61,988 nucleotides of DNA, filler included, from Dugesia japonica (GCA_001938525.1; 6 parts of 6 records of this genome joined end to end with filler, not necessarily neighbours in it), one strand, 5' to 3'. Counted from the first letter of the whole stretch, positions 5,255 through 61,988 are shown. Notes: generated from the sequence alone by a model not told the origin. Translations and numbers: made by a program.

Positions 5255-5323
<69 letters not shown>

Positions 5324-7203: not shown

Positions 7204-7246
7204 TTTTATATTTAAATATAGTTTAAAAAACAAATGAAAATCTCAC

Positions 7247-27593: not shown

Positions 27594-30131
27594 TGTTGGG
27601 GTGAAACACCCAGTTAGAGACGAAAAGTAGATCCAAAGTTCAAATCAGTAAAGGAGGACAGTAATGTGATTATCAAAAGTATTCGAAAGGTAAAGCAATC
27701 AAAATCAGGTTTGGGACATAATGCACATAACCATTAAAAAGAGTAACATAAAAGTAAAAATGGATCCAAAAGACAGGGGTGAATAAAGTGAAACCACATC
27801 ATCAATATTAATCAAAAGAAATAAAGAGGCTCATAATAAAAATCAATGAAATTATATTTATATAACAATTAATTATCAAAGAAAAGTTAATTAATTATGA
27901 AATAAAATAAATTAAAATTAGTCGAAAATTGGTTTTATACTAATAACTTCGCTCAAAAAAACCGGAGAGAGTTCAGGTAAAAATATCTGAAAAGAAAATA
28001 ATGAGAAGCATTGGAATTTCGTAAGAAGAAAATTTTGCCACCATCAGAGGAGCTACCACAAGGGTTGGAAGAATGGGCCAATAACAACCCAAGAAATAAA
28101 AATAAAACAAAGACCTGATCATCACATGATGATTTAAAAATAGAGGCCAATAAAAGTTCAAGAAATCCATGAAAAATCTGGAAAATCAACACCAAAACCA
28201 ATGAAAAACAAGAAATTTGAACTAAAAATAACCGACCAATGTAGAGTGAATTGGGGTCTTACCAAAAATTGTATTAAACCCCCCTGAATTTTAATCAAAT
28301 ATTTACACTTTTTCTCATATTTCACTTACGGAAAGTTATAATAAATCTATTCAGGAAAGCAACATTTGGAAACCGATTAGTTATTATAGCAATTAATTTA
28401 ACGAAGGCATGGTATTAATTTCCACTGCAATAATTCCAAGCATCTTCTTTAATTAATAAATTAGAATTACAAGGAACGGTCGAAGAAACGGAATTAAAGC
28501 AAAACCAATCTAACGAGAATCAACCCATTATCGGAACCCGTTGCAGTTAATTCTATCTCCGCAGTAAGTAAAAGTTCATGGTTAATTGTTTATGTTATAT
28601 GATTTATGTAGTAAACTGTTAATAAAATTATTTAATTTAAAGTTGATTGATTTTGTATAGATATTTTAGAGCTAAACCTGAATAGAAGTTCCATTTTTCT
28701 TTTCCATTTAAAGTATTAGAAAATCATGATCTGGTCAGAAAAACGATCTCCCACAAAATTAGATGTTGATTGCAGGCAGAGAATACATAACCCGTGTCCT
28801 GATAGTAATTATCAACTCGCGTATTGTCACCACTAAAGTCCACTATACACTCATACATCGGCCATCGTAATGAAAACTTTTGCCTAGAGAAACATGATTA
28901 ATCAGAGAGACTTAGGAAATGGGTTGGCACATACTAACTGCCATCTATGGCTAAACCTGATTGAAAAAGCACACTTTTATTCTCTATCGTTTTCCCTGCT
29001 AATCTTTCCCAGTAACTAATTCAAGCAAATCAGTTCACCATAAGAGCAAAAATAAGTTAATATTCACCTTCTCACCAGTAGGTGTGTCAGAAGTTTACAA
29101 GCGCAAAACAAAAATTCATTTTTTACTACTGTCTCACCGTAATGGGACACAAAACCACCGAGTAGAGATGTAGTAAATGGACTCACAAGCACAGTCAATA
29201 ATTGATGAAATTATTAGGTAATTTTTGTATCTGAAGCATTATTGATCACATTCATATATTAGTGGCATTCGTCTCTTTGAGCGCATGGCTAATTAAGGTC
29301 GTTACTAAAAACACACATATTATGAATTTTGTCCGTGAGCATTCTGCGTTACATTCCCGTTAAAGTAGTGGATAACTATAACTATCAATTATTTCATTCA
29401 TGTGCGCATGAATTACTATCCTATTTACACTATTATGATTCTTAAAATGATATTATTATGCATTCCATTATTATTAACATTAACAATATTATTATAATTA
29501 TTAATATTTGTATATCAATTTTTCTATTTAATACCCGTGTTATTGCCAATATTAAAATTAGTAAAACGAATAGCATCTTGATTATTAGTATCACCGTCAC
29601 CATTATTGTCAGGCCGAGATCAGTATTTTCCACAATTAGTAACCGTATTGTGGCCACTTATTTAATGGTAGCTCAAGAGAATTTTAAATTGGTAATTGTA
29701 ATTAAGATCAGCGAAAAATAAATTTCCTCAAACAATATATCTCTGACCTATCATTTCAACTGGGGAATCCAACGTGGATCCAATGAGACGATAGTTATGA
29801 CCAAGTGTCTTTTGATTTTTTGGTTACCGATCCGGCCCAGTGGTTAGACTCTGGCACTCTGTAGGAGTTGTAATTATTAGAAATAAAATATAATGTAATA
29901 TTAATGTTTGATTGACGTCTTGGTGAGTATAATAAGGGAAATAATGAACCCGAAACAAAGATGTACGAGTGATAACCTCCCATAAAGGTTGAAGGTCAAA
30001 CTTAGGGGCATTAGATTAAATTCTTGAAAGGGATCCCCTGAGAGCCGTTTTTTCTTGGCCAGTTTTTCCGTTTTATCATCAACTCAGGTGAAGCCACAGC
30101 AATCCGACGAGTACTACAAACTCATGTAACA
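27594..30131 (+). mobile_element. Long LTR-like element (TGTTGGGGTGAAAC family), ~2.5 kb, with decayed internal ORFs
   Basis: Starts TGTTGGGG and is collinear with 58245-59400 (acaagggttggaagaatg, CCAAT boxes, ccgttgcag, AATAAA). It has the 3' motifs gaaccc and agattaaattctt and ends ...tgtaaca. No matching TSD, so the 3' end is tentative. Confidence 0.7.
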
Positions 30132-30837
30132 CCCTTAATTCCCTGAAAATTCACAAAATTTGCATAAATCCGTTATATTTCAAATAAACCAAATATTTAA
30201 CCATTAAAAATTCATAAATTAAATTAATTATTTTCCTCCCCGAGAAATCTCAACAATACAAATCAGCATATGTTATATAAAGTTAATTACTATTTTGAAT
30301 TTCCTACCATTCAATTCAAAACTTAAATTTACATATAAATTGTCTAAGTACTTATCTTTAAAAATTTATCTTTTAAAATGTTGGGGGAAAATAAACCTTG
30401 AAAACCAACCTTAAAATACACATACACACACCTGTAGTATATAAAACAGACACAATCAATATACATCATATCTACAATTCAAATCAAATCCATCAAATGA
30501 TTCCAACCAAGTCAACCAAATCAGTGATCAACATTGTAATATTTATGTGAAAATATCTGATTGTTAGAAATTATAATATTTATATTATTTGTTGACTTTT
30601 TATATATTGATGTATCTTATTTTATTTTATTTGTAAATATTGTTTCTACAAGAAATATAAATGAATTTTTTGATCCGATCGATTATGAAACGCATGTTTA
30701 TTTTGTAAAAAATTAAAAGCAAATAATTCAATCGATCACAAAACCAACAAGAAAACTATACTTTTATTTTTCTTTCAAAAAAAATAATGGAAATGAATTT
30801 TTATTTATTAATATTAATGAAAGTGAATTTTTATGTT

Positions 30838-31086
30838 TGTTGGGGTGAAACACCAGATTAAGGCAAATAAAATGGCGTAAGTAAACACGAAATTCGAAAA
30901 TTCTACCTAAGAAAAAAAATGAAGAAATCGGACCCACGAAGGGCATAATCTAGTTGGAAAGAAGAATTACGAAAGCCAAAATGGGATAAGAATGCCAAAA
31001 TTCGTGCGAAGGACGAAAGAACTAGAAGATAACGAGGGAATAAAAAACCCAACAAAGTCAAAAATCGGTAATCCGAACAACGAAAA
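30838..31086 (+). mobile_element. 5' end of the same LTR family, truncated at a scaffold end; near-identical to 53518-53584
   Basis: tgttggggtgaaacaccagattaagg...atggcgtaagta.acacg.aattcgaaa is shared with 53518. Confidence 0.8.
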
Positions 31087-31594: not shown

Positions 31595-31887
31595 TGTAGG
31601 TAGATAGTAGCGCACTGAAGCACCCCCTTATCGAAAAATAATAATACTGTTTCAGAATTTAGGTATTGGTGTGTGTGTATACGTAAAAGTGAACTCGAAT
31701 GGGTTGTGGAGTTATTGATTTTAAATTTTGGGGGGGGGTTTATGACATGGGCGTGTCATGATTGTCTTTATATTGTCTAAAAAACTTATAGAGTAGGGTG
31801 CATGGTTCTCTCTATAAGAGGTGGTATCGCACTGAAATAGCTGTTGACTTATTGCGCGCTTTTTTTTAATCTTAATAGTTTTGTGAG

Positions 31888-32835
31888 TAGTTGTTGGATT
31901 TTGGTGGGTAATGGCTTGTTAAAGATGTAATGTGATGAGGAATTTGTTGGTGGTAACGATGAATAAATGACGTGGGAGCTTTATCTCCTGGCAAAATGAA
32001 ATTTGGAAGCGTGTGTGGCTGCATAAAAAGCAAAAAATAAGTCTTATAAGAAGCGCTGTCGTGAGTATCAGGAGGAAGTGAAACTTTCTCACTCCCAGGA
32101 TTTTATATGGAAGGCTCAACTCGAATCTTTCGCNGAGTTTATTCGGTTCTCACAAGAAAAAGAGAATCAATTAGTGAACGATATTTTAAAATTGCGGTAG
32201 CCTGTGCCTTTTGACCCAATCTTAATTTACAGACGCGAAACTGAGTTTGCCTATTCAGTGTATTTTTTTTTGTTTATCAATAAATATTTCAAGTTTCTTT
32301 TGTTCATGCAATTTTTTTGTGATCTGGTTATCTCCATGTGTTAATTACCTTTAATTTAGTGTCCTTAAATCAATTAAATAAGTGTCATCAATTGTTACGT
32401 GGACTGTTGTTAGAGCGAAATGAGCCAAGTGGTGTAAACAGATGTTGTTATGACACATCAAACAAAAAATCAAACCATAAGGAAGCTCGAGATGGTGTAT
32501 AAAAAGCAGCTGGAGATCGCAAATAATACTGCGAATAGGCTGTTCCGAAAGGTAAACTTTCTAACACAATATATATCTGACCTGACCGCCAGGCAAAGTC
32601 TTTGAGCTATTAATCAGTAGAATAGCATCGATGATGANGCAGCCTTTAATTTTTTGGATGAACCTCCAGTTCAACCCTGACAATACACACATTTCTTTTT
32701 GAACGAATAAATGTTGCACATTATTACTCTTGATCTGGTTTTATATACATAGTTTAATTAAGGGGAATTTTGAACCCGGACCAAATGGATGTGAGCTAGC
32801 ACTCAAACTACGGGTTACGAGTCACCGGCTCCATC
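31888..32835 (+). pseudogene. Decayed LTR cargo cassette: ORF B (31888-32260), ORF C (32450-32680) and the LTR 3' motif (32772-32835)
   Basis: MTWELYLLAK*NLEA...YKKRC...WKAQLESFAEFIR...ENQLVNDILKLR aligns with 61508-61894. RKVNFLTQYISDL aligns with 29712-29750. Confidence 0.8.
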
Positions 32836-33399
32836 TAATCATCTAATAGTAATCATCACCGGAATCATCTAATAGTATGAGTTTGTGAGCATCCATTGTC
32901 TAAGCAACTAATAGTATGATCCAATGGACATCTATTACTATGAAACCTGAGCAACTAATGTTAATACTACCCGAAAAACATTATTATTAATATTTCCCGG
33001 GGTAGCATCAAATATTAATGTTAATATTCTCCGGCGCTGCTAATTTTAATATTGCTCTGGAAAAAATATACTTTAAAAATCGTTAATTTTACTTAATTTA
33101 AACAAATAATAAGTAATTTGACCTCATTTAAACAAAAAATCATAAAAATACATTAATTAAAACAAAATATGTATTATGTAATTATTATGTAACCATTACG
33201 TTGTCATTACGCAACTATGATATCCTCATACCGTAACCACTGAATCATTAGGTAATCAACACACACAAAAATTTGTACCAATCAATTCGCTAAACACATG
33301 TGGGCGACCACTAAAATTTCTGCCTCAAAAAATTTTATACTCGCATAGGGGTAATGAGGCAGTGGGTTACTATCCTTATATTATCACTTTCAAGGAATC

Positions 33400-38067: not shown

Positions 38068-38809
38068 ATGGGTTGTGGGTCGAGGGTTTTGGAACAAGAT
38101 ATTATAATGAAATTATTGGGCGTAATTGATGAAGATTCATTTAATTAGATAAAAATAAATATTTTCAGAATGAAAATGCAGAGTTTTCTTGTTCAAAGGA
38201 AAATGAAATTAGTTCATGGAATTCCAACGTTACTAACTTTAACAATAATGCTCCTGTTCAAACTAAAATTTTTAACAAAAAATCCAAAGCAAAGTTTAAT
38301 AACGGATCTCGAATGATGTATGGATATAAATCAAATAATAAAGTCAATAATTTCAATTTTAAATATCATGATTCAATAGATGATTATCTAATTCAATATC
38401 GCAATGAGAATAAAGCAATCAGGTGCCTTTCTGAGAACGGTGATCTCGCTAATAATCGGGAAATTTTTAATAAACCTCATAAAGACATAATAGACTCAAT
38501 AGTGACAGATTTCTATCCTTTGAAACCTGATCCTCCTGAAAAGTCATTGATTCATCAGGTGAAATTTTGGCAAAATCAAAATTCAGAATTTGATAAATAT
38601 CGCCAAGTGTCGATCTCAAATGATAATAATGATATTCAACGTTCTTTAATTGGTCCGCAAGTTGTTGGATCATTACCCTCTTCTTCAATTCCAACTAGTT
38701 TTGGACAAAGGTAAGTTTTATCTAATAATTCTTAATAAAAAAAATAATAACCAATTCAAATTACTGATTAATATAAAACATATTCTAGATGTCGGTATCG
38801 AATTACGAG
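38068..38809 (+). CDS. Unidentified gene, 5' exons, with MGCGS N-terminus (putative myristoylation/palmitoylation)
   Basis: Exons 38068-38121, 38169-38710 and a possible micro-exon 38789-38809. GT-AG sites join in frame to about 205 stop-free codons in very AT-rich DNA. No family recognised. Confidence 0.65.
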
Positions 38810-39309
38810 GTTTGTAATTATTAATTTACCCACTAAGCTTGCACTTGATATCACAAAATATCGATAAAATGCACAGATTTTTAAAAATTACTTATAAATA
38901 ATTCTATTTCAATTAAAAATTTCACGAAAATCAGTTTCAAAAGTTATTGATTGAATGAAATACGTCATTTTGGAGATTTCTTAGAGTGCTCTATTTTCAG
39001 TGATAAATTTTTTCTGTTGGAAATTTGAAATGACGCCTCAATTCGGCAGAGACCAAACGAAATTAGAAACTTTTTATTCCTTGTCGCCGCCTAATATTAC
39101 CATTGTAATATATTCTCCGGTGAGGAGTGCCTCCCCAAGGAGGAGTACAAAATATTAATTCCTCAAATTGTAATTTGAGAAATTTTCATTTTTTTATTAT
39201 TGGATATCATAAAACAAACATGTAAATTTGATTTTTTTTTAATATTTTGTGTATAAATGTGAGGAGAGGAATAAAGCATAAAAGTATAGAATCCCTGCTC
39301 TAGAGGGTT

Positions 39310-41260
39310 TTGACAAATAAAAAATTATTTTACCGAACAAAAATTATTTTATCAAAAAGAAAAATTATTTTATCAAAAAGAAAAATTATTTTATCAAAAA
39401 GAAAAAATATTTTATCAAAAAGAAAAATTATTTTATCAAATAAAATTATTTTATCAAATATAAAAAATATTTTGTCAAATAAAAAATTGTTTTATCAAAC
39501 AAAAATTTTTTATCAAATAGAAAATTTTGTTTATCATATAAAAAAATTATTTTATCAAATAAAAAAATTATTTTGACAAAAAAAATTATTTTATCAAATA
39601 GAAAAAATATTTTATGTAAAAAAATATTTTATGTAAAAAAAATATTTTATGTAAAAAATTATTTTGTCAAATAAAAAAATTATTTTATCAAAAAAATTAT
39701 TTTATCAAATATAAAAAATATTTTATCAAATAGAAAAAATATTTTATCAAAAAGAAAATTATTTTATCAAATAAAATTATTTTATCAAATATAAAAAATA
39801 TTTTGTCAAATAAAAAATTGTTTTATCAAATAAAAATTTTTTATCAAATAGAAAAAATATGTTTTTAAAATGAAAAAATTAATTTGTCAAAAAAAATTAT
39901 TTTGTCATAAAAAAATTATTCTATCAAAAAGAAAAATTATTTTATCAAACAAAAAGTATTTTATCAAATAGAAAAAATTTGTTTATCATATAAAAAAATT
40001 ATTTTGACAAATAAAAAATTGTTTTATCAAATAAAATTATTACTTTACAATTGCAATTATTACGAGAATAATTGTTGGACATAACCATTGATAGTTTTTT
40101 AGAATTCATTTAATATAAAAGCTTTGATCAAAATTTNNNNNNNNNNNNNNNNNNNNNNNNNNNNNNNNNNNNNNNNNNNNNNNNNNNNNNNNNNNNNNNN
40201 NNNNNNNNNNNNNNNNNNNNNNNNNNNNNNNNNNNNNNNNNNNNNNNNNNNNNNNNNNNNNNNNNNNNNNNNNNNNNNNNNNNNNNNNNNNNNCAATAAA
40301 AAAATTATTTTGACAAATAAAAAATTGTTTTATCAAATATAAAAAATATGTTTTTAAAATAAAAAATTAATTTGTCAAATAAAAAATTATTTTATCAAAT
40401 AAAATTATTTTTTTACAATTGCAATTATTGCGACAATAATTGCTGGATATAACCATTGAAAAAAGTCAATTCCTGGCGAAGAAAAGGTCGAAAAATCGAA
40501 TTGTTATCCATTATCAATAAAAAAAACCAGAATTTTTATCAAAGCTTTTATATTAAATGAATTCTAAAATTATTTTATCAAAAATAAAAAATATTTTATC
40601 ATATAAAAAAATATTTTGTCAAATAAAATTTTGTTTTATCAAATAAAAAAAATATTTTTTAAGATGAAAAAATTATTTTGTCAAAAAAAAATTATTTTGT
40701 CAAATACAAAATAATTTATCCATAAAAAAATATTTCATCAAACAAAAAGTATATTATCAAATAAAAAATTAATTTATCCAAATAAAAAATTTTTTTATCA
40801 AATAAAATTCATTTATGAAATATAAAAAATATTTTTTTTAATGAAAACTTTATTTCATCAAATAAAAAATATTTTATCAAATAAAAAATATTTATCAAAT
40901 TTAAAATATATTTTGTCAAATAAAACATAATTTATCCAATAAAAAAATATTTTATCAAATAGAAAGTATTTTTAAAATAAAAGCTTCGATCAAAATTTGT
41001 TTTTTTTTGTTTGTGATAATAGTTCTAATTTTTGACTTTGTCTTCGTCAGAAAAATGTCAATTCCTGACGAAGACAAAGTCAAACATTAGAATTATTATC
41101 ACAAACAAAAAAACAAATTTTCATCGAAACTTTTATTTTAATTCATTCTGTAAAACGATCAATGGTTACGTCCAACAATTATTCTTGCAATAATTGCAAT
41201 TGTAAAACAAAAAATATTTTATCAAATAAAAAAGTATTTTGGCAAATAAAACAAACTTAA
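39310..41260. repeat. Degenerate ~21-bp AT-rich minisatellite (aaaaattattttatcaaata-like) with embedded MITEs
   Basis: Directly visible. It explains the KIILSKR-repeat ORF. Confidence 0.9.
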
Positions 41261-41804
41261 AATAAAATGCTTTTCCTTATTAAAATAATAATCATAATCT
41301 TGAATCAATTTTAAATTTAAATTGCGGACTGCACGGTAAGATTCAACATAGGAAACAACTATCTAATGAAACAAGGAATAAAATTATATCAAAATGCAAA
41401 TCAGGAAAATCACATATAGATATTAGCATGGACCTTGAAGTAAAATATAAAACTATTAGGTATGTAATAAACATGTTTAAGAAGTTTGAAGATTATCGTT
41501 ATTGCTATTATTTCTCATTAGGTTTTTTCAAAATTTTGTAAAGAAAACAAATACATTATTCAATGTTCAATAGACAGTTAAAAGTCAATGTTAGTTATCG
41601 CTAAATTATTTGGTTCGTTTTCAATATCCTTAAAATAATTGCAAAAACTTCAAGATTTATTTAACAATAAAATTAATATTCTAATTTAAAATATAATAAC
41701 AAAATTTTTCAAGGCTAAATTATTTTAATGTTGACAAATTTATTGCCTATAACAATCAATATAAAATTTAATAAAATTATTTAAAAATGATGATTTTTTG
41801 AATA

Positions 41805-43720
41805 TTACAAATAGGAGTTTATTTTTAAAAATATCAACATTTTAAAATCTTTAATCTTCTCCATATTTCTAATCACTGTTTTTCCTGTAACATCTCTTAG
41901 TAAATAAATTTTTTTTATTTTATTTATTTTCTCGATTTCAGTATATGGTCCTACATATCTACCTTGATCTTTATTACATATTTCTTGTTTAATTAGCACA
42001 TTGTCTCGTATATTTAAATTCTGTTCTGATCTTATGTTATTTTCCTTCTTTTGTGTTTCAATTTTCATCATCATTCTCTGCTGTTACTAAATCATTTTGA
42101 TCTATTTACTTTTCTTCCAAATACAACATCTGCGGACTTACACCGTTGGTTTTCTGAGTTGTAGAATTCAAAGTGTACTCAATGTCTGGTAATATAACCA
42201 ATTCGTATTGTGTCAATTTTTTAATGATGCGTTTTTGTATTCTCTATGGGTTCGAAACTGTCTTTCCACCATGTCATTGTGATGGTATGGACTAGAGAAT
42301 ATTAACTCAATTTCTGCTGCACTTGTCATTTCATTTACACCCTTTGCTTTAAAGCTTTTCCCACAATCTACGTGTAATTCCTTCGGTGCCCCAAGTTTTA
42401 GTATCCAATTATTCAGTAAAACTTGGACTATTGTCTTTTCATCTTGTTTATTTATAGCAGTCAATACTATAGATTTACTGTAGTGGTCGATAATTACACA
42501 AATATATCTCTCTCGTTTCAGTGTTTCTTTCCACGGTCAACATATATCCATATATATTTTCTCGAACAGTTCATTTGCCACTACTACTTTAGTGTCTTCT
42601 TTTACCTTCGTCATCACTATCTTTATCTTTTGACATTCATCACATTCTGATATAATTATTTTTACTTCAGCAAACAAATCCTTCATATCGAAATTATTTT
42701 TAATATATTTCAATAGTTTGTATGCTCTTGCATGACACAGTAAGATATGAGTCTTCTTAATCATTTCTTTTATATTAAACGATGGGACCCATATCTTATG
42801 TTTTGTGTAAACAATACCATTTTCAACAATAAATTTAGCAGTCTCCGGTCTATTAAGCTATCTTATCTATTAAGCCCCTCAATTATTTTCTGTATTTCTT
42901 CGGAATTATTTTGCCAATTTTCATTATTATCTTCCGCTATGATGTTTAATAGTCTCGTTTTTAATCGCCCTACTTTTGGTTAATAATGATCCATCAGACA
43001 TTGTACGCAAGTTCCGCATGTATTTCTTGAAAGCATATCGGCATTACCATGTGATGTTCCTTTTCTAAATTCTATNTTAAAATCCAGACTACTAAAATAA
43101 TGTATCCATGTTTGGAATTGTGCCGTTATTAGTTTTTTAGTAGTTAGCATGAATGTAATAGCTTTATGATCTGTGTGTAGTGTAAATCGTTTACGCCGAC
43201 AGAAATAGTAGATCGCTAACAATACTTTTCTAGTAATACAGTAACCCCGTTCATGATCATTCATGGAATGATATCAATATGCTATTACTTGCTCATGTCC
43301 GTATTCATGCTTTTGAGATAATACCGCTTCAATGATATCAAAACTTCCATCGGTGTCGAGTATAATTTTTTTTCAGAAATCTGGGAATATAAATATTGGA
43401 GAGCCTATTAATGACAATTTCATTTCTTCGAAGGCTTTTTCATACAAATCAGACCATATCAATTTTTTATTAGTTTTCCCACACATAGCTTCTAACGCTT
43501 TTGATTTCTTTGCATTATATCTGATAAACTTCCTATACTAATTGCATATTCCCAAGAAACTCCTCAGGTTTTTTACACATTTTTGTCTTTGAAATGACTG
43601 GATAATTTCTATTTTACTCGGATCGGTTTGAATACCTTCGTCGTTTATAATATGACCTAAAAACGTAACTCCTTTTTTTAACAGTTAGCATTTTTCTGGA
43701 TTATTTTTAAACTCCTAACA
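41805..43720 (-). mobile_element. Ty3/gypsy pol relic (RT C-terminus, RNase H, integrase, GPY/F)
   Basis: YCITRKVLLAIYYF..FTLHTDHKAI, LLCHARAYK..CDECQ, WILKLGAPKELHVDCGKSF, FSSPYHHN, RYVGPY. Confidence 0.92.
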
Positions 43721-46629: not shown

Positions 46630-48640
46630 GCTTTCTATTGGTTGAAATTATAAATAATTTCCTAATATCTACATTTTTACGTTCTACATTTGTTTTTAAT
46701 TGCTGTTCATTTCTTCTTGTTCCACATACCTTCTTTAGTGAGCTTTCTTTCAAATGTGTCTTGATTTTGATTTTGTGTCAATTACTAATCACTTCTGAAA
46801 TTCTTTCTTTAGTTTTTCCTAAAAGTTTTGAAGTTTACCACTGGTTGCTGCTAATTTCCTTTCTTAATAAGATCCCAGTCGAGCTCACTCCAATCGTCTT
46901 CTGTTTTGTTGCATTCATCGTAAATTCTATAATATTTCGGGTAAAAGATCTGTCCAAGTTATTGTGCTTCTCTCCGGAAATATCGTTTTAATTAAATCTC
47001 GAATTGTGCTGAAGTGTCTCAAAAAGCAAAGGTTAATGTTTTGCTTATGTACAAACTTTCTCAAAACTCTAGATTCAAAGGGTTTGTAACAATCTAGTCT
47101 TATTTCTAGAGTGTTTTAAGAATCACTTATTTACTAAACTGGTATATTATTCTAAAAATGTATATTTCTGTATTATTGTTTTCTGTATTGATCCACATAT
47201 ATCTGTGAATATGACTTCAAACAAATTTGTAGTTCTAATTTCTTTACTTTCTTTTTAGTTACTGCTGTTACTACTTTGGTCTTCTAAAGAATTTTAGAAC
47301 TACGAACTATCTTCTGTATTAGGCTCAAGAAATTCTTCGACTTACTCTTGTTTTGATATTCTCTTGGCATTTTAAAATGCACCAATAAGTCGCATCTTGC
47401 TCTAAATAATATATCTACATTACCATGTTGAATTCATTTTATATATTGAAATACCATGTCTAAACTACTGAGATAATTAATCCATGTCTGGAATTGTGAC
47501 GTAATTGGTTTCTTCATTCTCATCATGAAAGTTAGCTTCATAATCTGTCCTTAAAGAATTTTTCTACCGTACAAGTATTGTTTGAAATTTATGCAGAAAT
47601 GATAAACCGCTAGTAACTTTTTTGTGTGAACCAGTACCTCTTTTCATGACCCGTAATTGAATGTGATCCATAGGCCATAACTTTTTCTTCTTTATCACTT
47701 TGTGATAATACTGCTCCAATTATATTGAAACTAAAATCTGTCTCTAATATAAATTGTCTGTTTTTGTCTAGAAAACACAATATTAGCCAGACATTAGAGC
47801 TTTCATCTACCCATTCTAACTTCTTTTTGCTTGGTCCGCTACACAACTGTTCTAGCATCTTTGATTTTTTTGAGTAATTTTCTATGATCATCCTTTAATA
47901 ATTACAAATTCCTTAGAAACTTCGCAACTTCTTCACACAGTTAGGTTTGCGAAATGTTCTTATTGCTTCTAGTTTAGATGGATCAGTTCTTATACCAACT
48001 TTGCTAATTATGTGTCTTAGAAATTTGAGTTCGCTTTGTGTAAACTGACAATTTTCTTAATTCTTAAACCAGCTTTTATTATTTCCGTCAATACTCTGCC
48101 AATGACTTCATAGTGTTAATCTTTTTTGTTCGCATTTATCAGAATATCATCAAGATAAACCATGGCTCCATTGATTCCACCTACCACTTTTGTCATCATC
48201 TTTTGAAATGTATCCGTTGCCGCTGTTATGCCAAATGATATTATATTAAAACAACCTTGTCCATACTTTGTTGCAAATGCTGTTTTTCCTGAAATTCTTC
48301 TACGAGCTCTATCTTATAGTACACATTTCCTAAATCTATTGAACTTAATTATTTTGCTCCATCCAACTTGTCCAGAATTTCATTGACGTTGGGTATGAGA
48401 AAGACTAGTCTTTTCGTTAATATATTCAATTGCCTGAAATCCATACATATTCTTATTTCTTTCTTTTCCTTTTACCAAACACAAATCAGTTGAGTATTTT
48501 ATTGAGAGTTACATTCCTATATAATTTTATTCTCAAAAAGAGTTTCGACAGCTTTTTCAATTTTAGCAACGAAGTTCATTAGTTGAATGTACGGTTAAAC
48601 AATCACCATTTATGATGATTTTGTGTTTTATCAAATGAAT
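46630..48640 (-). mobile_element. Ty3/gypsy pol relic (RT-RH-INT, internally deleted)
   Basis: IRICMDFRQLN, MVYLDDIL, QFILETDFSFNIIGAVLSQ, IEFTMNATKQKTIG. Confidence 0.9.
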
Positions 48641-50182: not shown

Positions 50183-51707
50183 TTTTGGGGTTTTATCTAA
50201 GTGGGCAGATTTTTTAAGCTTAAGTCTAGGATGGTCGACCTAATAAAACCCTACGAAGAATTTAATCTGGTGTCCACAAAAATCCAGATCTTCAGAATGG
50301 AGCCGTTGACTCGCAGCCCGTAGTTCGAGTGCGTGCTCGCATTCCTTTAGTTTGGGTTCATATTTAACGATTCTGGCTCAGTTTTAGAGACACTTATTAC
50401 TATCAATCATTAACGTATTAAATTTCAGATTATGAATCATTTATTAAATTTTATTTTATCCGTTAGTTGAATCCTAATTAACTATAATTTTTTCTAATTC
50501 ATGGTTATGCATATCTAACTTAGTTCGTTTAATTACTACTTTTATATTAAAAATCAATAACCTATATTTTTACAGTTATAAAGAACAAAAGAATTTAAGA
50601 AGTCAAAAATATATTCAATTACCAAAACTCTCACTTGTTATACATTAATCTAATAATTTAATAATCATTAAAACTAACGTGGTCTGGATCCCGATCCGAA
50701 GCAAGCCCAATATTTGAATTGTCATTTCCTCGGTGGATATTAACGAATCAAGTGGTCCGCCATAATTTTCCATATTCGGTTCAAGTCGGAAATATGGATA
50801 AAAAATTACCGTTAAGATTCTCAATTTCTGTAAATTTCCAATAATGAAGATTGATTAAGATTGCTTTATAGTTGTTAAATTTGATGAAAATTTCATCGGT
50901 ATTTATACTGGTTTTCAGATACATTCTCGTTCTTTCTATTGATCAACGGGGTCGTACGATTTTTCTAACGTTCTTATTGGCTTGATATTCACATGAGTAC
51001 TTTTTATTGGTGGTTATGTTGGAATTCCACAATTATTGGTCAATCTTCAAACCATTGTATCTTCTTTTCTAGTCATGCAATGACTTTTTAACTTAGATTT
51101 TCGTAATCTCCGATTTTTTCTCGCCCCGAATCTTCTTAATTGCTAATTTTTTTCACCATGGGAAGACGTTGGTTTTGGCATATTTTCATAAAATATTTAA
51201 TTTTCTTTTAAAAATATATCATTTTAAATCGTATGATTTTTTTTATTTAAATAAATAAATTTTTTATTTTATTTTTATCTTAAATTTTAATTATATGTGC
51301 ATTTCTGGGTTTATCTAATTTACATTAATTTAATTTCGTCGTTTTTTCTTTCATTAATTAATTTAATTAATTTCTTCATTTATTTTCTCTTTCACCAATT
51401 ATTAGTTCAATATGATTTCCTTAGTTTTGTCTAATGAACTAATTGTTATTCGTTATTTTCTTTAGCTGGCTGATAAATTTTATTGCTTCTTTTCTTCCTT
51501 ATTTCTTGCTGTAACTTTAGATTTTGCTGGTTATTACGTACGTTTTAACTACTAACCTTGATTTTTCTTTTAATTATTTCTTTACCTCAATGAATTCTGA
51601 CTTTCCTTTGTCTGGATTCTTTGTTTCTCCATTTAGCGACTATCTTTTCATTTTCGGCTTTATCTACCGCCATTTTTATTTTCCATATCAGGGGTTTCAC
51701 CCCAACA
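50183..51707 (-). mobile_element. Solo LTR (1525 bp) of the TGTTGGGGTGAAAC family with 4-bp TSD AATT
   Basis: Ends are t(t)ttgggg...ccccaaca, with AATT at 50179-50182 and 51708-51711. CCAAT boxes and TATAAA lie on the minus strand. 50183-50800 is homologous to 55707-56190. Confidence 0.8.
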
Positions 51708-52489
51708 AATTTAATTTAATATTCAAAATGTACCGAGGTCTAAAGAGATTAATCATTACAAATATCTATGTATATTGATCAATTTCATAATTTATTGCTC
51801 AAAATTCATCTTGATAGTTTATTGTGGCCAATAAATGTTTTCGCAAACAAACTAATATAATTAAGCAATATTTGTGACAAAAATCTTCAACAGTTAAAAT
51901 GTCAAAAGAACAATAAATAAAAAATAAATAACGCTGTTAAAAATAAAACTTTATTGTTATATATTTCAAAGGATCAACCGTCATCATCAAACTAAAATGA
52001 AAAAAATGAGTTTATTCAGTCTGTATTATTCAAACAAAGATCAATGCTATTATACTGAATATAAGAAGGCTATAATTCTTAATTTTTAATTCTTAAACTT
52101 TTTAACAATTTTTTTCAAAAATATTAATTTATCTAATAATATTTTATTAAAATTACTATTACCTATAAAATCAAAGATGCTTTTTCAAAAATATTTAAAA
52201 TTTTTAATTTTAGATAATATGAAAAAATAAAAATTGATTTTATTTTTAAATGATAAAATACAAAACCTATAAAAAACATGAAAATAAGATTTCAAAATTT
52301 GAAAAATTATTTTAAATCTTAAAAATTTAAATTAATTTAGTCGACAGAGCTGTCTGTACATTAATCCGTGGTTTATGAAATCTAATCATTAACGCTTCGT
52401 ATTATGTAGTTACATCAATTATCGCTGTTAATAATAAGAAGAAATGTAAATAAAAACTCCAAATACATTTATTTTTACATAATATCTCA

Positions 52490-52843
52490 TTCAAAGTAGC
52501 GTCCATCATTGCTAACAACATTTCCCCACCTTTCTAGTAACAAATGAATTCGACGATAAAAAAATTTTTCTTTCTTGGAATTTACTCAATATTCAAGCCA
52601 TTTTTGGATATCATAATGATTGTTGAATAGTTGTTAAGAAAAGCCATGTTGCATTGTGCGAAAAAGGTGGTAATCACTTGGTGCGACGTCTGTTGAGTAT
52701 AGCGGGTGAGGTAAAACTTCTCATTTGAATTCTGTTATGGTATTCCTAACGAAAATCGAAGTTTAGAGTCGAGCATTATCATGCTGTAACAACACTGTCT
52801 CGTGTCAATTGGAATAGTCTGACCATTTTTTGTGAAATGCTTG
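52490..52843 (-). mobile_element. mariner transposase C-terminal relic
   Basis: VLLQHDNAR, EVLPHPLYSTDVAPSDYHLFRTMQHG, ERWGNVVSNDGRYFE. Confidence 0.9.
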
Positions 52844-52844
52844 A

Positions 52845-53322
52845 CTCGGCTTCTTTCTTGAGAGCGATACATTTTTTTTATATCTAGTCACCTTACTATG
52901 GGCCGTGGCTATCTCGGCCTCCCATCGACGTTTGGCTAACTTATACAGATCCCAGGTGAGATCAAGGTCTTCACTAGTTTCCCGCAGCTTTTTATTTGGA
53001 GCCTGCGATTTATTTTATTAATCATGTAAATAACAAAATCCAGTAATATATTTTTAGTAGAGCCGAAGTTTACCTTAATCAATGTACGAAGGCATAATAT
53101 AAATAAACAATGAATAAAACACCTATTTATTCACAATTTAAAAAAATATCATTGGGGATCATTATTATTGTCGACATTGGGTGCCGTGTTTTCCATATCA
53201 GTCACTCCAGTTGGTTCTCTAACACCCCAGAGGAGATTAGATATAAAGGCCTGTACCGTGGGCGCTGGAGTGGGAGCGGGAGGCCGATATTGGAAGGATG
53301 TTGCAAGAGTTCGATCATGAGG
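52845..53322 (-). pseudogene. Decayed LTR cargo cassette: ORF A C-terminus (53322-53149) and ORF B N-terminal half (~53096-52845)
   Basis: APNKKLRETSEDLDLTWDLYKLAKRRWEAE matches ORF B at 61562. ISNLLWGVREPTGVTDMENTAPN matches the end of ORF 60885-61304. Confidence 0.8.
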
Positions 53323-53866
53323 ACTTCATTAAGAAAATAATAACAGTTTTATCACTATCCATAGTAATAATAACAAGCGCCACCATAGGAATAAACAGCG
53401 GGAGAAAAATTAATTTGACAACAATACTAATAATAGTATTCACTCCTAATTCTTTATTATAGAGTTAATCGTAATCGTGATCAATCGAAGTATATTTAAT
53501 TTTAGAGTTTATAGAATTGTTGGGGTGAAACACCAGATTAAGGAAAAAATAATGGCGTAAGTAGACACGGAATTCGAAAGATCTNNNNNNNNNNNNNNNN
53601 NNNNNNNNNNNNNNNNNNNNNNNNNNNNTTAATTAATTAANNNNNNNNNNNNNNNNNNNNNNNNNNNNNNNNNNNNNNNNNNNNTGAACTGTTCTAGAAC
53701 ATAAATTAATGGATTTTCATTCGACTATTCGATTTGCTATTTTAGGAAAATTTTCCCGGCTCCTACTTTGAGAACTACAACAAGATTCCAAATTAGTAAT
53801 TCAAAAATTTTAATTTAATTAATAATAGTTACAATAGAAAACGATAATAATAATAAGAAGAAACAT

Positions 53867-54669
53867 TTATTCACTATTTGCGTTAAGGTTACGACGCTTA
53901 CCCCTGTAAATGGCCTCTTGGAACAGACTCAACCAAAGTCTGATTGAACAAATACTATCATCATTTCCTGGGATCGGATATGTAATAAGACGTGGATCAC
54001 AATTAGAATCGACAATCCCAACTGTCGGAATTAGTAAATTTGCAGAATCTCTGATTGCCACGTGCGGTAGGAAAACCGAATTAAGACTGTGAACAAAGAT
54101 AACACAATCTGGTAAACGAGTTACAACTCCGTAAACACTTTCTGGTTCCGTAAAATGACTCCCTAACCATGGTCTGCAATGAGAATATTGTTCACATTGT
54201 TTGGCTACGTTTTCTACTAACGGTATAGTCTACACAAATATTATAAATAACGATAAATTGAATTACCTGAAGATGTCTGGAAATAAACAAAATTATGCCC
54301 CCTTGAGAAGAAATGTGAGCAATAAAATTCAAGGCTTCCCCTAGAAGTTTGATTGTTTTATTCAAGTCAAATATATCAATTCCTTGTCTGTTTCCAAACA
54401 AATATGGAGTCATGTAAGGATTTCTAACTGTATTCTTATGGCCCAAATGAATTCGAAATTTAAATAAATCTTCAACGGTACACAAATTCCTAACTCCAAA
54501 ATAATCATAAGTGGATAAGGGGTCTACTGAAACTTTAAAATCTTCATTAAATTTTAGACTGAAAATATTATATACTATTAGATTCTTGAATACTTGTTTG
54601 ATTAAATTTGTTAAAATATTTTAAAATATTCCATTTGATTAAAAGGTTAGATGCTTTTTGAAGAATCAT
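53867..54669 (-). CDS. MRPS2: Mitochondrial ribosomal protein S2 (uS2m)
   Basis: Exons 54669-54576 (or 54594; first exon tentative), 54526-54267 and 54229-53867. They read DPLSTYDYFGVRNLCTVEDLFKFRIHLGHK...DIFDL...RLPDCVIF...IPTVGIVDSNCDPRLITYPIPGNDDS. Confidence 0.95.
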
Positions 54670-55435: not shown

Positions 55436-55706
55436 TGTTGGGCCCGAACAGCCATTAAATTAAAGATTAGATTAGAGATCAGGACCGAATAAGGACAGAT
55501 AAGAAGATGCATTAAGCTTGGTTAACTAAAAGAATTAGATAAAGTGAAGAGATGGCGGAAAATAAAAGATATGAACTAATTTTGGATAGAAGAAACGAAT
55601 CTATAAAGGAAATCTAATAACAATTAAAAGAATTAATTAAATTATTAAAGATAAAAGTGGATTTCGAAGTTAACTTAATAATTATAATTATATAATTATT
55701 AAATAT

Positions 55707-56190
55707 GTTGGGGTCTTACCCTTGGTAGGTTGATTTATTACATGATTCCATCTAAGGGGGGTCGCACTTTATATGGAATTTTGTCTAGGGTGATTTACCC
55801 GGTCAAACCCCGTGATGAAATTGAATATGGTGTCCCCAAAAATCCAGATCTTCGGAATGTAGCCGTTGACTCGGTATTCGAGTGCAGACTCGCATTCCTT
55901 TCGTTTGGGTTCCTTTTCTATAGTACTCACTAAAGTATGATAATTATTCCGTCGATTTTGGTCAATGGTGTCAGTTTAGTAAAAGAATAAAATAAAACCA
56001 TATNNNNNNNNNNNNNNNNNNNNNNNNNNNNNNNNNNNNNNNNNNNNNNNNNNNNNNNNNNNNNNNNNNNNNNNCAAACTCGATCCGGAGCAAGCACTAG
56101 AGAATAGCATCCATCCCATTCATGTCCAATAGAGACTACAGCGGTCTTTCATAATGATCATTCATAACAATCCAGTCGGACATCGTTGCA
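55707..56190 (-). mobile_element. 3' part of a long LTR, homologous to 50183-50800
   Basis: tgttggggtcttacc terminus, plus shared ggtgtcc.caaaaatccagatcttc.gaatg.agccgttgactcg and cgatccg.agcaagc. Confidence 0.7.
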
Positions 56191-57076: not shown

Positions 57077-58162
57077 TGAGGGGGGTGAATTGATATTCTT
57101 GATGATTATTATTGTCAAAATATTGTAAAATTCTTGGCTATACTAAGAAAATTAATCATGAATCTCTTATAATTGTTGTTTCATCAATATTAGCAAGAAA
57201 AACACTATATTCATCCAACATTTATTCATGACAAAGTTTCTATGAATTGAAAAAACTGAATTAGAATAATTTTAATATTCCAACAAATATACTCAATAAT
57301 TATTTTAATAATTTTCTTGAAATATTATAAATTTCAAAAACTTTAATTAAAATATTTTAATTGCGCATATAAATTTGAAATAGAACAATTCAAATATCAT
57401 TCTCACATCCCCCTTCTTTAAGAAATCTTCTGATATTTTCAACAGTTCTTTCCATTGTCCGAACCAGATCATCTCGAATCAGATATCTTCGGCCATGTAT
57501 CTTTTTTACAACTAAGAATGGACCTACAAAACGATCCTGATCGTTATTTCTTGTTTCCTCGTTGATAAGCACTGCATCTCCAATATCGAATGTTCTCCTG
57601 GTTTGGTACGTAACCTTCAGTATATCGTTTACATTCTCGAACTCTAGTTGTCTAGATGGAAACCATCTTTCTCAGCTGATGTTTCTACGGTTTCTACCGG
57701 GCTTTTACCTGTTCTTTTCTGAACTATCGCATTCATCACAAATCCTATCTCTGGTAGAATTTCTGCCCAATTCTTAGCGTTTCTGTCTGCAATTGATGCT
57801 CCAATCCAGTCTCTGATAGTCCGAAATTGCCTTTCTACCTGTCCATTCGTATTATTGTGATAAGGACTTGAGAAACAATATTCAGTTTATTTAATTAGTT
57901 AGTTTATTTTTATATTTAGTTTAATATTCATCTCATCTGCAATTTTTTTCATTCTTGGTGATTCAAATANNNNACCACAATCTGTATGAATATACCTCGG
58001 AGCTCCTACCTTTAATATCCAGTTATCTTTTAATACACGAGTTATTGACTCTTCATCTTGTTTTCCTGTTGCTTTCAATGATATATATTTACTATTCTTA
58101 TCAATAATAGCCACGATATATTTCTTTTTTGAAATGTTTCTGACCATGGTTCTGCAATATCA

Positions 58163-58201
<39 letters not shown>

Positions 58202-58244
58202 TTCGCTCAAACGGTCTCGCAGACTCGGATTTTATAGTTTCTTC
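57077..58244 (-). mobile_element. Ty3/gypsy 3' end: integrase relic, PPT and short 3' LTR (57407-57077, 331 bp)
   Basis: WILKVGAPRYIHTDCG, SSPYHNN, RFVGPF. PPT aaagaaggggga (57408-57419) is followed by TGTGAG...CCCCTCA. Confidence 0.85.
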
Positions 58245-60885
58245 TGTTAGGGTGAAACACTCGTTAAAGAAAAAAGGAAAATAAGGCCAAAAGCTCAAAT
58301 TAGTAAAGAAGAACGGCAGGGATATTATAATCATCAATAATGGAATTTGAAAGGAGAAAAAATTAAGAACCCGGATAGGTAATAATGAAAATAACCATAA
58401 AAAAGAATAAAATAAAAGTGAAGATGGATACGAAGAACCAAGGTGAATAAAGCTAACACGCATCAATGTTAAGAATTAAAAGAAATTATTAAATTAATAA
58501 TAAAAGCCAAGAAAATTATTAAAGGAAATAATTAATTACCAGAAAAATATCAATTAATTTTGCAATAAAATAAAACAAAATTAATCAAAAAATTCGTTTT
58601 ATACGAATAACTTTGCTCAAGAAAGCCACATGAGCTTGGTACAAGAAAATTCGAGAAGAATTTTGTCAAAGTATTAGGATTTGGTCAATGGAAAATCTTA
58701 ACACTATCAAGAAGGTTTTTACAAGGGTTGGAAGAATGAACCAATAAGGGGCGAAAAATAAAAATAGAACAAAGAAATAACAATCACATGTCACTCCAAA
58801 ATATAAGCCAATTGAAGCACAAAAAACTCTACAAAAAATCTAAAAATTGGTAACACCTCCAATGAGAAACGCAAATTTCAAACTAAAAATAAGTAACCAA
58901 TGGCAATGATGTTGAAATGCATTAGAAAATCCTATAAAAGGACCCAGAATTTAAGATGAAAAGAAACAACTTTTACTACAATTTCCCTGAGTGACTTACG
59001 TATAAACTTGTTCACGAAAAAACGAGATTTTTCAAGTAGCACTACGTCCTCAATTGGATTACCAAAGAAATTGTAAGATCGCCGTTACTGATAAATTAAT
59101 TAACCGAGAACTTTATTAGATTTGTAGAAGAAAGTAGTCTAACCGAGTCAGAAGATAATTCATAGTGGAAATAATTAATTAGCTAACCAAAACCTGAACC
59201 TTAATCAAAGGCCACCGTTGCAGAATACTTTACCAAACAAATTACTTAGTAAGTAACACATCTATGTATTTTAATGTATTTTATTACATATATTTTATGT
59301 GAATGGAAATCAATGTTAATAAAATATAATATTTATCGAATAATTTAATCATTCAGTATTTGTGATAATAAATTATGAAATGATTACCTGATATTATAAG
59401 ATATATTTTTAGACAACCGCATTGAGTAATAATGTCTTCTTGTGTTACTAATTTTAGATACATGCGATCATACATAGATACATTCATAAACTGTATATTA
59501 CTTTAAGAAAATCTAGTCATTATCTGTTGCACCACTGTAACAATAGTTTACACAGTAGTTATATCGGGGAAAAGAAATAAAATCGACACTGATGCACATA
59601 CTGATATTTTATCTAATACAACCATGCACCGATATGAACATAATTTTTTGAGTGAGTATGCGCGAGGCACTAATAATTCATNNGTCTACCACTTGTTGTT
59701 GAAGTTTAAGTGACAAATGAATTACCTATGATCATCGATTAAATCATCGGAAAAAGGGATTCTTGTATAATAGAAAATATAATTAATTAATGGAAATATT
59801 TCGCCAGAAGACAACGAAATGCTCATTCTTGAGAAAAAACTCTCCCGAATCAGTGCGAGACAACCGTTCAGCCGTATCCATCCTATAAGACTAAGCACTG
59901 ATTTCTTTTCTCTTACTTGGCGTAAAAGATGTTCGGCAAACCTTAGCGATGTGAGCAAGTTTCGACAATAAAACGACGATAGGAAATTTCCCGGAAAATG
60001 TAATGATCCAAATTGCACTCATAAGAACAATCAATCTGGGTTGTAAGTAGTTATCACTGGAAGTGTCCTGAGTATACATAATGTGTTAACCTGTTCAAAC
60101 TAGAGTTCTGTTATCATCCAGAAATCATGATTTTAAGATCAGAAAGCTTATTTAGTTATCGTATGTGTTATTTATTATATGATTCGACTTTATTTGTTTT
60201 TGTTTGCTTAAATGTCGTTTGTATCCGATTCTCCAGCTACACGCCACCGACAGTTCCCGAGTTAGTAATTCATTTAATTTTTGAAAATCCCTCTAATAGT
60301 TCTAATATACTAGCAGGTAAAAAGTTGATTAAAAAACTTATTATGTATGGTTTTATGCGATTTTGAGTATTATGATCATGAATGAGGTTTTTGACACCTT
60401 TGTTATCTGCGTTATTGCATTTTGATCGTCCCTCAATTTTAATTGAATTTTTTGTTTTTGATGCAAGCACCGGTACTTGCCGTTTACGTTATTTCCTTTT
60501 GGTATTGCACTCAGAGATCATCGTATTTCTATCCCTTAATCTTAGTCTAAATCGTTCATTATACTTAGAGAATGCCTGTGCAACTAAAACATGCACTCAG
60601 GAAGATTAAGCTACAACGTAAGGCGGCCAGGTTAAGACAATTACTCGCTCATATATTGTCAAAGGGGAAAATCAAACATCCCGACGAAACCGACTTATGT
60701 TGTTTTGTTGAGAGGTTTCCACTGAATTTTCATGTGAACATCGACGCAGAATAAGAAAGGAATATGGTTAATGTTTTTTTGGATAATAAATTTGTTAAAT
60801 CTTTGTTTGAATTTTTTTATAAATCTAATTAATGAATTTAACGAAATTCGTCTATAAACACAAAACCAATTTTTATTTTTTCTAG

Positions 60886-61304
60886 TGAATCACAAATGGG
60901 AAGTTTTGTTGGACCGACGCACTGGTCGCACCATATTTAGGAAGTATACGAATCCCTATAATCTGAATGCGGGTGTTCTTATAAATTATTCAAATTTGTC
61001 CGAGGAGGATGCTGCGAACGAGCGTGAATGGGCCAAAGCCAAACGTCAGACTTTTTATGCTTGGAATGGCCCCAATCAAAGCCAAGAAGTATTTCATTCT
61101 ACCACCGCATTTCCACCTCTAAATACTGAGGAGATTGCGACTACCAGCGAATGGCGTGCAGGTCCGTCAGTGACCCCCATCTTGGTCGAGCATTTATCTC
61201 CCAACACAAGATTATACAGTGATATAGGTAACACTTTATGTGACCTGCGAAATATCGCTGACGGAGTTGAATCCGAAAATAATGCTCCTAATAATGAGAC
61301 GTGA
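60886..61304 (+). CDS. Cargo ORF A, open terminal exon of unknown function
   Basis: Polypyrimidine-TAG acceptor at 60885, then 139 open codons. A possible upstream exon ends at 60766 (phase-compatible 119-nt intron). C-terminal homolog at 53322-53149. Confidence 0.6.
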
Positions 61305-61507
61305 CATTGATAACACTAGTAGTTGTTTTTATTAAGTGCTGTATTAATAATAATAATTTTTGTAATTTCACCACCAGTCTTATGTCTTCTCGTTTGATTA
61401 GGATTATTATTCTTTATAAATAGGAACAATTCGTAAGTAACATCTAGCTTATTTTAAGGCTATGATTTGTGAAGGTGTGTTCTTTTGTCTACACTAATTA
61501 ATTGTAG

Positions 61508-61894
61508 ACTCCACTAATGATTCTTTTTGATTTAGTGCATTCCTTGTTAACTCGTACCATAGCACCCACCAAAAAGTTACGTGAAGTCGACGAGGACCAA
61601 GAGATGAGTTGGGACCTCTATCGTCTAGCCAAGAGAGGCTGAGAAGCGGATGTCATGAATTCCACCAGCAAAGTGAAAAGATATAAGACAAGATGTCTTG
61701 CTTTTAAAAAGGAAGCCGAAGCCTCGCACACACAGGAACGTGTGTAAAAGGGGCAGGTAGAGTCTTTTGCAGAAATAATCCGGTCCTACCAATACCGAGA
61801 GAATAAATTGGTTAATGGCATCTTGGAATTACGGAAAAGGATACCCCTTAAACCACTGTTGATAGATAAAAGCACACAAACCTCTCGGCCATAA
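61508..61894 (+). pseudogene. Cargo ORF B, helical/coiled-coil-like protein ending LIDKSTQTSRP, with two premature stops
   Basis: TPLMILFDLVHSLLTRTIAPTKKLREVDEDQEMSWDLYRLAKRG*EAD...RV*KGQVESFAEIIR...ENKLVNGILELRKRIPLKPLLIDKSTQTSRP*. Both stops align to Trp in other copies. Confidence 0.8.
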
Positions 61895-61988
61895 CTAATT
61901 ATGCCTATAAATAAATGTCTCCTTGCTTTATAATGACTTATTTTGTTGTCTATCTTTAAAAAACAGGATTTTCTTCCTGATTACATAT

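What the first reader, a model, noticed from the sequence alone, without database searches (positions are those of the whole stretch)
58245..61988. Giant LTR-like element that appears to carry a multi-gene cargo cassette inside the LTR
Seen: overlapping pieces from four scaffold segments tile one architecture. It runs TGTTGGGGTGAAAC, CCAAT/TATA promoter, AATAAA, antisense ORF D, ORF A, ORF B, ORF C, a conserved gaaccc/agattaaattctt 3' motif, then ...CA. The 58245 copy gives 5'-D-A-B, the 53322-52845 copy gives A-B, the 31888-32835 copy gives B-C-3' motif, and the 27594-30131 copy gives 5'-D-C-3' end. None of these ORFs resembles gag, pol or env, and most are missing from the ORF track because of stops. 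Known: Schmidtea mediterranea has giant Ty3/gypsy 'Burro' elements with multi-kb LTRs (recalled, not checked). Inference: a ~4.5-5 kb LTR carrying its own small, possibly spliced genes, which would persist even in solo LTRs. I know of no description of these proteins.
Basis: partly seen in the sequence, partly recalled or inferred. Interest (0 to 1): 0.85.

Follow-up and report, generated by a model that had tools for sequence, protein, structure and literature searches.

The report
Orphan genes inside retroelement terminal repeats
A family of jumping-gene end repeats in this AT-rich animal genome carries decayed protein-coding segments with no known relatives between its two ends, which likely makes each repeat a small self-contained gene cassette, a layout known from mouse mammary tumour virus and HIV but not found in the papers searched for invertebrate retrotransposons.

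Summary
Partly confirmed. Pieces on four scaffolds share a 5' block (TGTTRGGG start, CCAAT boxes, TATA) and a 3' block about 180-200 nt long. ORF B is a real decayed coding segment in three copies (third-codon-position excess, p 0.0002-0.004). C is shared by two copies, one of them bounded by both termini. A is marginal as a homologue. The shared antisense ORF D is not supported. Diverged DNA contigs from two runs of different studies cover the promoter edge, the middle and the A-B junction, so the layout is not one-off nesting. Lengths are 1.5 kb, 2.5 kb and about 4.35 kb (projected; never seen whole). No homologue or fold match was found for A, B or a further ORF, E; C was checked only against Pfam and PHROGs. 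No PBS, PPT or linked gag-pol was seen, so Ty3/gypsy or Burro membership is untested, and so is the host species. RNA support is nearly nil: 40 partial reads, none 99% alike, no splice joints. Best reading: modular accessory genes in an expanded U3 with their own promoter, analogous to MMTV sag. The key Burro paper could not be read. The scan had not noted this cassette before.

The parts
58245..58965 (+). c1 5' block: TGTTAGGG start, CCAAT at 58741/58808/58859/58897, TATA at 58933
   Evidence: 552/744 nt identical to c4; summed DNA contig depth 700-3800 here, dropping to about 60-85 at 58967
59249..59254 (+). GTAAGT splice-donor-like site, same position in c4 (28564); AT-rich intron-like stretch follows
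   Evidence: alignment, 0 of 50 shuffles; splicing itself not shown
59789..60040 (+). candidate exon F (one stop), followed by GTAAGT at 60043; a 98-aa minus-strand ORF at 59722-60018 is its opposite frame
   Evidence: no homologue in the window or Pfam; candidate only
60572..60754 (+).
   Evidence: local peak of DNA contig depth 720-770 at 60618-60744; no Pfam, PHROG or Atlas match
60858..61304 (+). ORF A, open for 148 codons, no ATG start, acceptor-like site near 60886
   Evidence: weak match to c3 (codon bias p 0.03); diverged contigs cover it
61565..61891 (+). ORF B (c1), two stops; predicted three long helices; AATAAA at 61910
31952..32245 (+). ORF B (c2), four stops and one N; AATAAA at 32279
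32450..32674 (+). ORF C (c2), stops, heptad-like N half (read by eye); AATAAA at 32706
32772..32953 (+). c2 3' block and probable degraded end
   Evidence: 100/139 nt identical to the c5 3' block
53140..53340 (-). A-like segment (c3)
   Evidence: marginal: 1 of 200 shuffles
52821..53005 (-). ORF B (c3), frameshifted, then cut by a mariner transposase fragment (52804-52484)
   Evidence: Mos1 match E 1e-27
27594..30138 (+). c4, 2.5-kb solo-LTR-like unit: 5' block, unrelated middle, 3' half of C (29712-29840), 3' block; end degraded, flanks match 3 of 4 nt
50183..51707 (-). c5, 1.5-kb solo-LTR-like unit with both blocks, 4-nt target duplication, no A, B or C
55706..56003 (-). c6, 3' block with an intact end that is a 9-nt inverse of the family start
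   Evidence: 131/163 nt identical to c5
30838..31086 (+). further 5' start of the family, cut by scaffold end (another at 53518-53584)

Best explanation
These are likely the long terminal repeats of one retroelement family, in which a variable middle holding decayed protein-coding segments lies between a conserved 5' promoter-like block and a conserved 3' block, and the middle is probably an expanded U3 that works as a self-contained accessory-gene cassette. Shown: shared termini, units of 1.5 and 2.5 kb, B under coding constraint, C inside both termini, the order A-B and B-C, and breakage of B in all three copies. Inferred: the CCAAT/TATA block at the 5' edge drives spliced mRNAs for E/A, B and C, with B and C each ending at their own AATAAA. 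The last 180-200 nt would be R-U5, carrying the start and poly(A) site of the genomic RNA. Reverse transcription would then copy the cassette into both LTRs, and LTR-LTR recombination would leave it in solo LTRs, where it decays. Subfamilies gain, lose or swap modules. Most speculative (about 0.3): B, a basic helical protein, is a trans-acting regulator of the element's own RNA, such as export or read-through past the internal splice and poly(A) sites, in the manner of Cer1 CERV or MMTV Rem.
For: B differences fall mostly at third codon positions: 56 of 112, 29 of 51 and 27 of 52 (p 0.0002, 0.0005, 0.004), while the 5' block control is flat at 67/64/61. GAACCC lies 190, 181, 176 and 205 nt from the end in four copies, and the AATAAA after C is 64 and 66 nt upstream of it in c4 and c2. 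B-C runs into the 3' block with no new TG start between, so it is not an internal region followed by a 3' LTR. ATTAAA followed by T-rich sequence lies inside the 3' block of c4 and c5. c5 has a 4-nt target duplication. Contigs about 85-90% alike from two DNA runs of different studies cover 58772-59116 (X4 only), 60171-60661, 60898-61321 and 61279-61607 (table 8). MMTV holds the whole sag ORF in U3 and has extra upstream U3 promoters (PMC12789967, passages).
Against: No copy shows 5' block, A, B, C and 3' block together, and c1, c2 and c3 are diverged subfamilies with saturated synonymous sites, so the tile may be a composite. No PBS follows any of 4 ends and no PPT precedes any of 5 starts. 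RNA: 32 of 13.6 million and 8 of 11.6 million records laid, none 99% alike, no joints listed (about a quarter of each run read, no control gene in the stretch). The 3'-block poly(A) hexamer is absent at that place in c2 and c6, and a TATA-like word upstream of GAACCC is variable. Summed depth over the second half of B (about 9000) exceeds that of the 5' block, so B may also occur in other settings. A genomic RNA crossing several AATAAA sites needs a read-through mechanism that is not shown.
Confidence: 0.55

Rival explanations
1. Same gene-bearing LTR, but the CCAAT/TATA block is the only promoter, so the cassette lies in a multi-kb R/U5 downstream of the start (closest to the first reader's picture).
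For: The 5' block is the only clear promoter-like region (four CCAAT boxes, TATA). Contig depth falls right after the TATA. A conserved donor follows about 290 nt later.
Against: The first DNA product of reverse transcription would have to be 1-4 kb long, and the 5' LTR would hold poly(A) signals after B and C (established retroviral mechanism; inference). The fixed 180-200 nt 3' block looks like an ordinary R-U5.
Confidence: 0.17
2. The 4.35-kb tile is a composite. The units are non-autonomous or rearranged derivatives of different subfamilies, and A and B are accessory ORFs of an internal region or of another repeat that got between the termini in some copies.
For: No whole copy is seen. c4 has only part of C and c5 none of the ORFs. 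c3 has no terminus. Depth over B exceeds that of the 5' block. Extra ORFs of LTR retrotransposons usually sit in the internal region (PMC7264820, first third read).
Against: A-B order recurs in c1 and c3, and diverged contigs cover that junction in both DNA runs. B-C abuts the 3' block directly in c2.
Confidence: 0.18
3. Not an LTR: a gene-carrying DNA transposon with TGT ends and a 4-nt target duplication (Ginger-like; features recalled), or a Polinton piece.
For: Ends are short inverted repeats, the duplication is 4 nt, and no PBS, PPT or gag-pol is attached.
Against: No long terminal inverted repeat in c4 or c5 (25 longest pairs each). No transposase, integrase or polymerase match in the cargo. 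The 5' and 3' blocks are asymmetric, promoter-like and terminator-like.
Confidence: 0.07
4. Chance nesting or misassembly at these loci.
For: The draft is fragmented and dense in nested repeats; a mariner cuts c3.
Against: All 30 bins of c1 are covered in both DNA runs, with diverged pieces across module borders. Spacing between C and the 3' block is conserved in two scaffolds.
Confidence: 0.03

Closest known systems
MMTV sag and rem exon 2, and HIV-1 nef, in the U3 of the LTR (PMC12789967, passages)
   Same: Protein-coding sequence inside an LTR, copied into both LTRs; MMTV also has extra promoters upstream in U3.
   Different: Vertebrate retroviruses with one or two LTR ORFs and LTR-external promoters also used. 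Here there are several orphan ORFs, each likely with its own processing signals, varying between subfamilies. No sequence relation was found.
Burro / GYPSM1 giant gypsy-like elements of planarians (PMC6431247, passages; Grohme 2018 not held)
   Same: Multi-kb LTRs (implied by over 30 kb total against up to 25 kb internal), accessory coding capacity, AT-rich host; decayed Burro fragments are reported in one Dugesia genome.
   Different: Burro's described extra domains are in the polyprotein or an upstream accessory ORF; the passages read mention no genes in the LTR. No sequence comparison was possible, and the host of this window was not identified.
Additional ORFs of plant LTR retrotransposons (Grande, RIRE2, Retand; PMC7264820, part 1 of 3)
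   Same: Family-wide orphan ORFs under conservation, origin and function mostly unknown.
   Different: Those are described in the internal region, mostly between pol and the 3' LTR, often antisense.
CERV of C. elegans Cer1 (PMC10309623, abstract)
   Same: A novel accessory protein from a spliced mRNA of an invertebrate LTR retrotransposon; a functional model for B.
   Different: No homology tested or found; the abstract does not place it in the LTR; its function is shown, B's is a guess.

Membership tests
LTR retroelement (LTR proper) | TG...CA termini with a short inverted repeat | tested here: met
   Five starts (0.0003 expected by chance); c6 end is an exact 9-nt inverse, c5 8 of 9, c2 and c4 degraded
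LTR retroelement (LTR proper) | 4-6 nt target-site duplication | tested here: inconclusive
   4 of 4 nt at c5 in AT-rich flanks; 3 of 4 at c4; other copies lack one end
LTR retroelement (LTR proper) | PBS after the 5' LTR and PPT before the 3' LTR | tested here: inconclusive
   0 of 4 ends and 0 of 5 starts; absence is expected at solo LTRs
LTR retroelement (LTR proper) | Two direct copies flanking gag-pol | not testable with these tools
Ty3/gypsy (Metaviridae) | pol order PR-RT-RH-IN linked to these LTRs | not testable with these tools
   Neighbouring pol fragments are on the opposite strand; the one beside c1 has its own PPT and a different LTR start at 57407
Burro / GYPSM1 | Over 30 kb element with a ~4,900-aa polyprotein, and LTR sequence identity to Burro | not testable with these tools
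   No Burro sequence available; paper and supplements not held
Burro / GYPSM1 | Planarian host | not tested
   Only an AT-rich eukaryote with an intron-split ribosomal S2 gene, mariner and gypsy fragments is shown
Polinton/Maverick or Ginger DNA transposon | Long terminal inverted repeats (recalled feature) | tested here: not met
   None joining the ends of c4 or c5 among the 25 longest pairs or in the self-BLAST
U3-encoded accessory gene (sag/nef type) | ORF lies upstream of the genomic RNA start, within U3 | tested here: inconclusive
   Motif spacing fits; RNA too sparse to map starts (table 6 empty)
U3-encoded accessory gene (sag/nef type) | Expressed from a spliced mRNA | tested here: inconclusive
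   Conserved donor; no joints in 40 laid reads from two RNA runs

The most novel reading that the evidence does not exclude
An invertebrate LTR retroelement family whose LTR is a modular, spliced, multi-gene accessory unit of up to about 4.4 kb with its own promoter, encoding orphan proteins (A, B, C, E) without database relatives. Each insertion delivers two copies, each solo LTR leaves a free-standing gene cassette in the host genome, and subfamilies swap modules.
Probability: 0.4. Interest if true: 0.75.

Novelty: new variant of a known kind. Interest (0 to 1): 0.55.

Why it matters
Extra genes of LTR retrotransposons are normally described between the LTRs, and LTRs are masked as non-coding. 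If several selected genes sit inside the LTR, the thousands of solo LTRs such families can leave become gene cassettes with a promoter. That is a route to lineage-specific orphan genes and a source of mis-annotated transcripts. It would also raise a testable question: how does the genomic RNA cross internal splice and poly(A) sites, and does a cassette protein do that job?

Tried and rejected
Homologue searches, all blank. B: no candidate at 59-191 aa. The HMMER profile of three B copies over 1.84 billion representatives gave 1 hit, a 930-aa repeat protein with DUF6570 whose score sums five repeats; rejected as spurious. B in JGI and IMG/VR: 0 of 245 and 0 of 162 pattern matches confirmed. B in PDB sequences: best E 0.069. 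A: 0 of 7 candidates. C was not searched against the large protein sets. Pfam and PHROGs: nothing at cut-off. Atlas: A and E scored below 0.9, leads only; B was not searched there. Terminus patterns gave 3 and 14 loci, 0 of 17 similar to the element. Folds: B (pLDDT 77.5, pTM 0.33) had no match at E 0.001 in BFVD or PDB. A (pLDDT 55) had best Z 4.4, not meaningful. Rfam: 0 matches. No RNA holder was listed for the stretch, which is no evidence either way. D rejected as a shared ORF. Pfam missed the mariner piece in two frames; the PDB search found it. Literature: searches listed nothing on genes inside planarian or invertebrate LTRs (listings only, except papers named as read). Passages of PMC8532177, PMC13238120, PMC11410931, PMC6884822, PMC13524379 and bioRxiv 10.64898/2025.12.11.693146 added nothing on LTR content. 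Grohme 2018, its supplements, Repbase and Dfam could not be seen and may already describe this; I recall, unchecked, that the paper shows predicted splicing and LTR-derived transcripts.

Full report
Setting. The window is about 25% GC and consists of six draft scaffolds joined by an artificial spacer. No whole genome is held. An intron-split ribosomal protein S2 gene, gypsy pol fragments and a Mos1-like mariner piece point to an AT-rich animal.

Termini. Five starts match TGTTRGGGTGAAAC (58245, 27594, 30838, 53518, and 51707 on the minus strand); 0.0003 are expected by chance. c1 (58245) and c4 (27594) share 552 of 744 aligned nt, with four CCAAT boxes at matching offsets and a TATA-like word, and both have a GTAAGT about 1 kb from the start. 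A second conserved block beginning GAACCC occurs in c2, c4, c5 and c6 and lies 181, 190, 176 and 205 nt from the end. The c2/c5 and c5/c6 blocks align far above shuffles; c4's is weakly similar (1 of 50 shuffles reach the score) and is tied in through C. c6 ends in an exact 9-nt inverse of the start. c5 is a 1,525-nt unit with a 4-nt duplication. c4 is about 2,545 nt, with a degraded end and 3 of 4 flanking nt matching. No PPT precedes any of the 5 starts and no PBS follows any of the 4 ends. There are no long terminal inverted repeats. These look like solo or 5' LTRs, but the element they belong to is not in the window. The integrase beside c1 is on the other strand and has its own PPT and a different LTR start.

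Cargo. B is solid: three copies, 45% and 53% identical to c1, far above 200 shuffles, with differences concentrated at third codon positions (p 0.0002, 0.0005, 0.004) against a flat control. The alignments were chosen on protein score, which favours such bias somewhat. All three B copies are broken: two stops, four stops, and a frameshift followed by a mariner insertion. C is shared by c2 and c4 over 43 codons (0 of 200 shuffles; codon bias p 0.045). A is open for 148 codons in c1, but its match in c3 is marginal (1 of 200 as protein, 15 of 50 as DNA, p 0.03). D failed every test between c1 and c4. Two further sense-strand candidates appeared in c1: F (59789-60040, ending at a donor-like site) and E (60572-60754). 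B and C are each followed by AATAAA, though that word is common in this sequence (12 in c1). Anchoring c1 to c2 on B projects about 4.35 kb; no copy shows this whole.

Independent DNA and RNA. Four of 24 listed runs were laid on 58205-61988 at 80% likeness. In two contig sets from different studies all 30 bins are covered. Summed depth is 700-3800 over the 5' block, 40-200 over most of the middle, 720-770 over E, 120-510 over A and 1200-9600 over B, against about 5-13 for single listed pieces. The tool warns that this is no copy number; I use it only as relative abundance. Pieces with 10-15% differences cover the promoter edge (one run), the middle, A, and the A-B junction (both runs), so related copies share the layout (16 of over 4,000 pieces were shown). 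RNA is nearly absent: 32 of 13.6 million and 8 of 11.6 million records, all partial, none 99% alike, mostly on the 5' block and B, with no splice joints. This copy shows no sign of expression, and relatives at most a trace. Both libraries were oligo-dT, which under-samples such elements (PMC6884822, passage), and no control gene was in the stretch.

Relatives. None was found for B, A or E by sequence, profile or fold; C was checked only against Pfam and PHROGs. These collections are mainly microbial, so the blank says little about related animals. B is predicted as three long helices.

Mechanism. Shown: selected coding sequence lies between LTR-type termini, in modules that differ among units of 1.5, 2.5 and over 3.7 kb. 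Inferred: the fixed-length 3' block, with ATTAAA and a T-rich tract in c4 and c5, is R-U5, so the cassette lies in U3 and the CCAAT/TATA block at the far 5' edge is the cassette's own promoter (0.55). The alternative is a single promoter and a multi-kb R/U5 (0.17). A composite of subfamilies or internal ORFs gets 0.18, a DNA transposon 0.07 and chance nesting 0.03. A role for B in handling the element's RNA is a guess by analogy with CERV (PMC10309623, abstract).

Comparison and novelty. It works like MMTV sag or HIV nef in U3 (PMC12789967, passages). Membership in Ty3/gypsy or Burro is untested. The Burro review describes extra domains in the polyprotein and an upstream ORF, not in the LTR (PMC6431247, passages). 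Eight searches listed no description of such a cassette, but the primary Burro paper, its supplements and the repeat libraries were out of reach and may cover it. Five look-ups in this scan's earlier notes found one note on a Burro polyprotein in another genome and nothing on this cassette. Verdict: a real feature, a new variant of a known kind, interest 0.55. It is held down by the missing full-length element, the lack of expression evidence and possible prior description.

Noticed in passing
window 13407, 22197, 31087, 45244, 53585: Artificial N-TTAATTAATTAA-N spacers join six unrelated scaffolds; neighbours across them are not genomic neighbours.
   Followed up: yes
window 53867-54620 (-): Host gene for a ribosomal protein S2 family member (likely mitochondrial), in two exons (Pfam).
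   Followed up: partly
window 41805-43720, 46850-48450, 31188-31620, 57390-58160 (all -): Decayed compact gypsy pol fragments. The integrase at 42213-42533 has a 78% relative in a Logan assembly and 47-66% relatives, mostly in metagenome collections (31 hits).
   Followed up: partly
window 52484-52830 (-): Mos1-like mariner transposase C-terminal fragment that interrupts ORF B of c3.
   Followed up: yes
window 30379-30560 (+): Another TGTTGGGG start with different following sequence and a TATA-like word; possibly a separate small LTR family.
   Followed up: no
window 50680-50920 (-): Middle of the 1.5-kb unit has a stop-poor frame followed by donor-like sites; may be a different decayed module, unrelated to the c1 middle.
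   Followed up: partly
window 60891-61301: Several top fold rows for the low-confidence A model are small endonuclease folds (tRNA splicing endonuclease, Hjc, VRR-NUC) at Z 2.9-4.4; below the meaningful range, a lead only.
   Followed up: partly
window 61812: Four RNA reads from related copies run on into an A-rich loose end behind this place; poly(A) tail or genomic A-run cannot be told.
   Followed up: no
window 38145-38714 (+): 189-aa open frame with no Pfam match.
   Followed up: partly
window 25079-25777 and 39300-41300: Large degenerate AT-rich tandem arrays.
   Followed up: no
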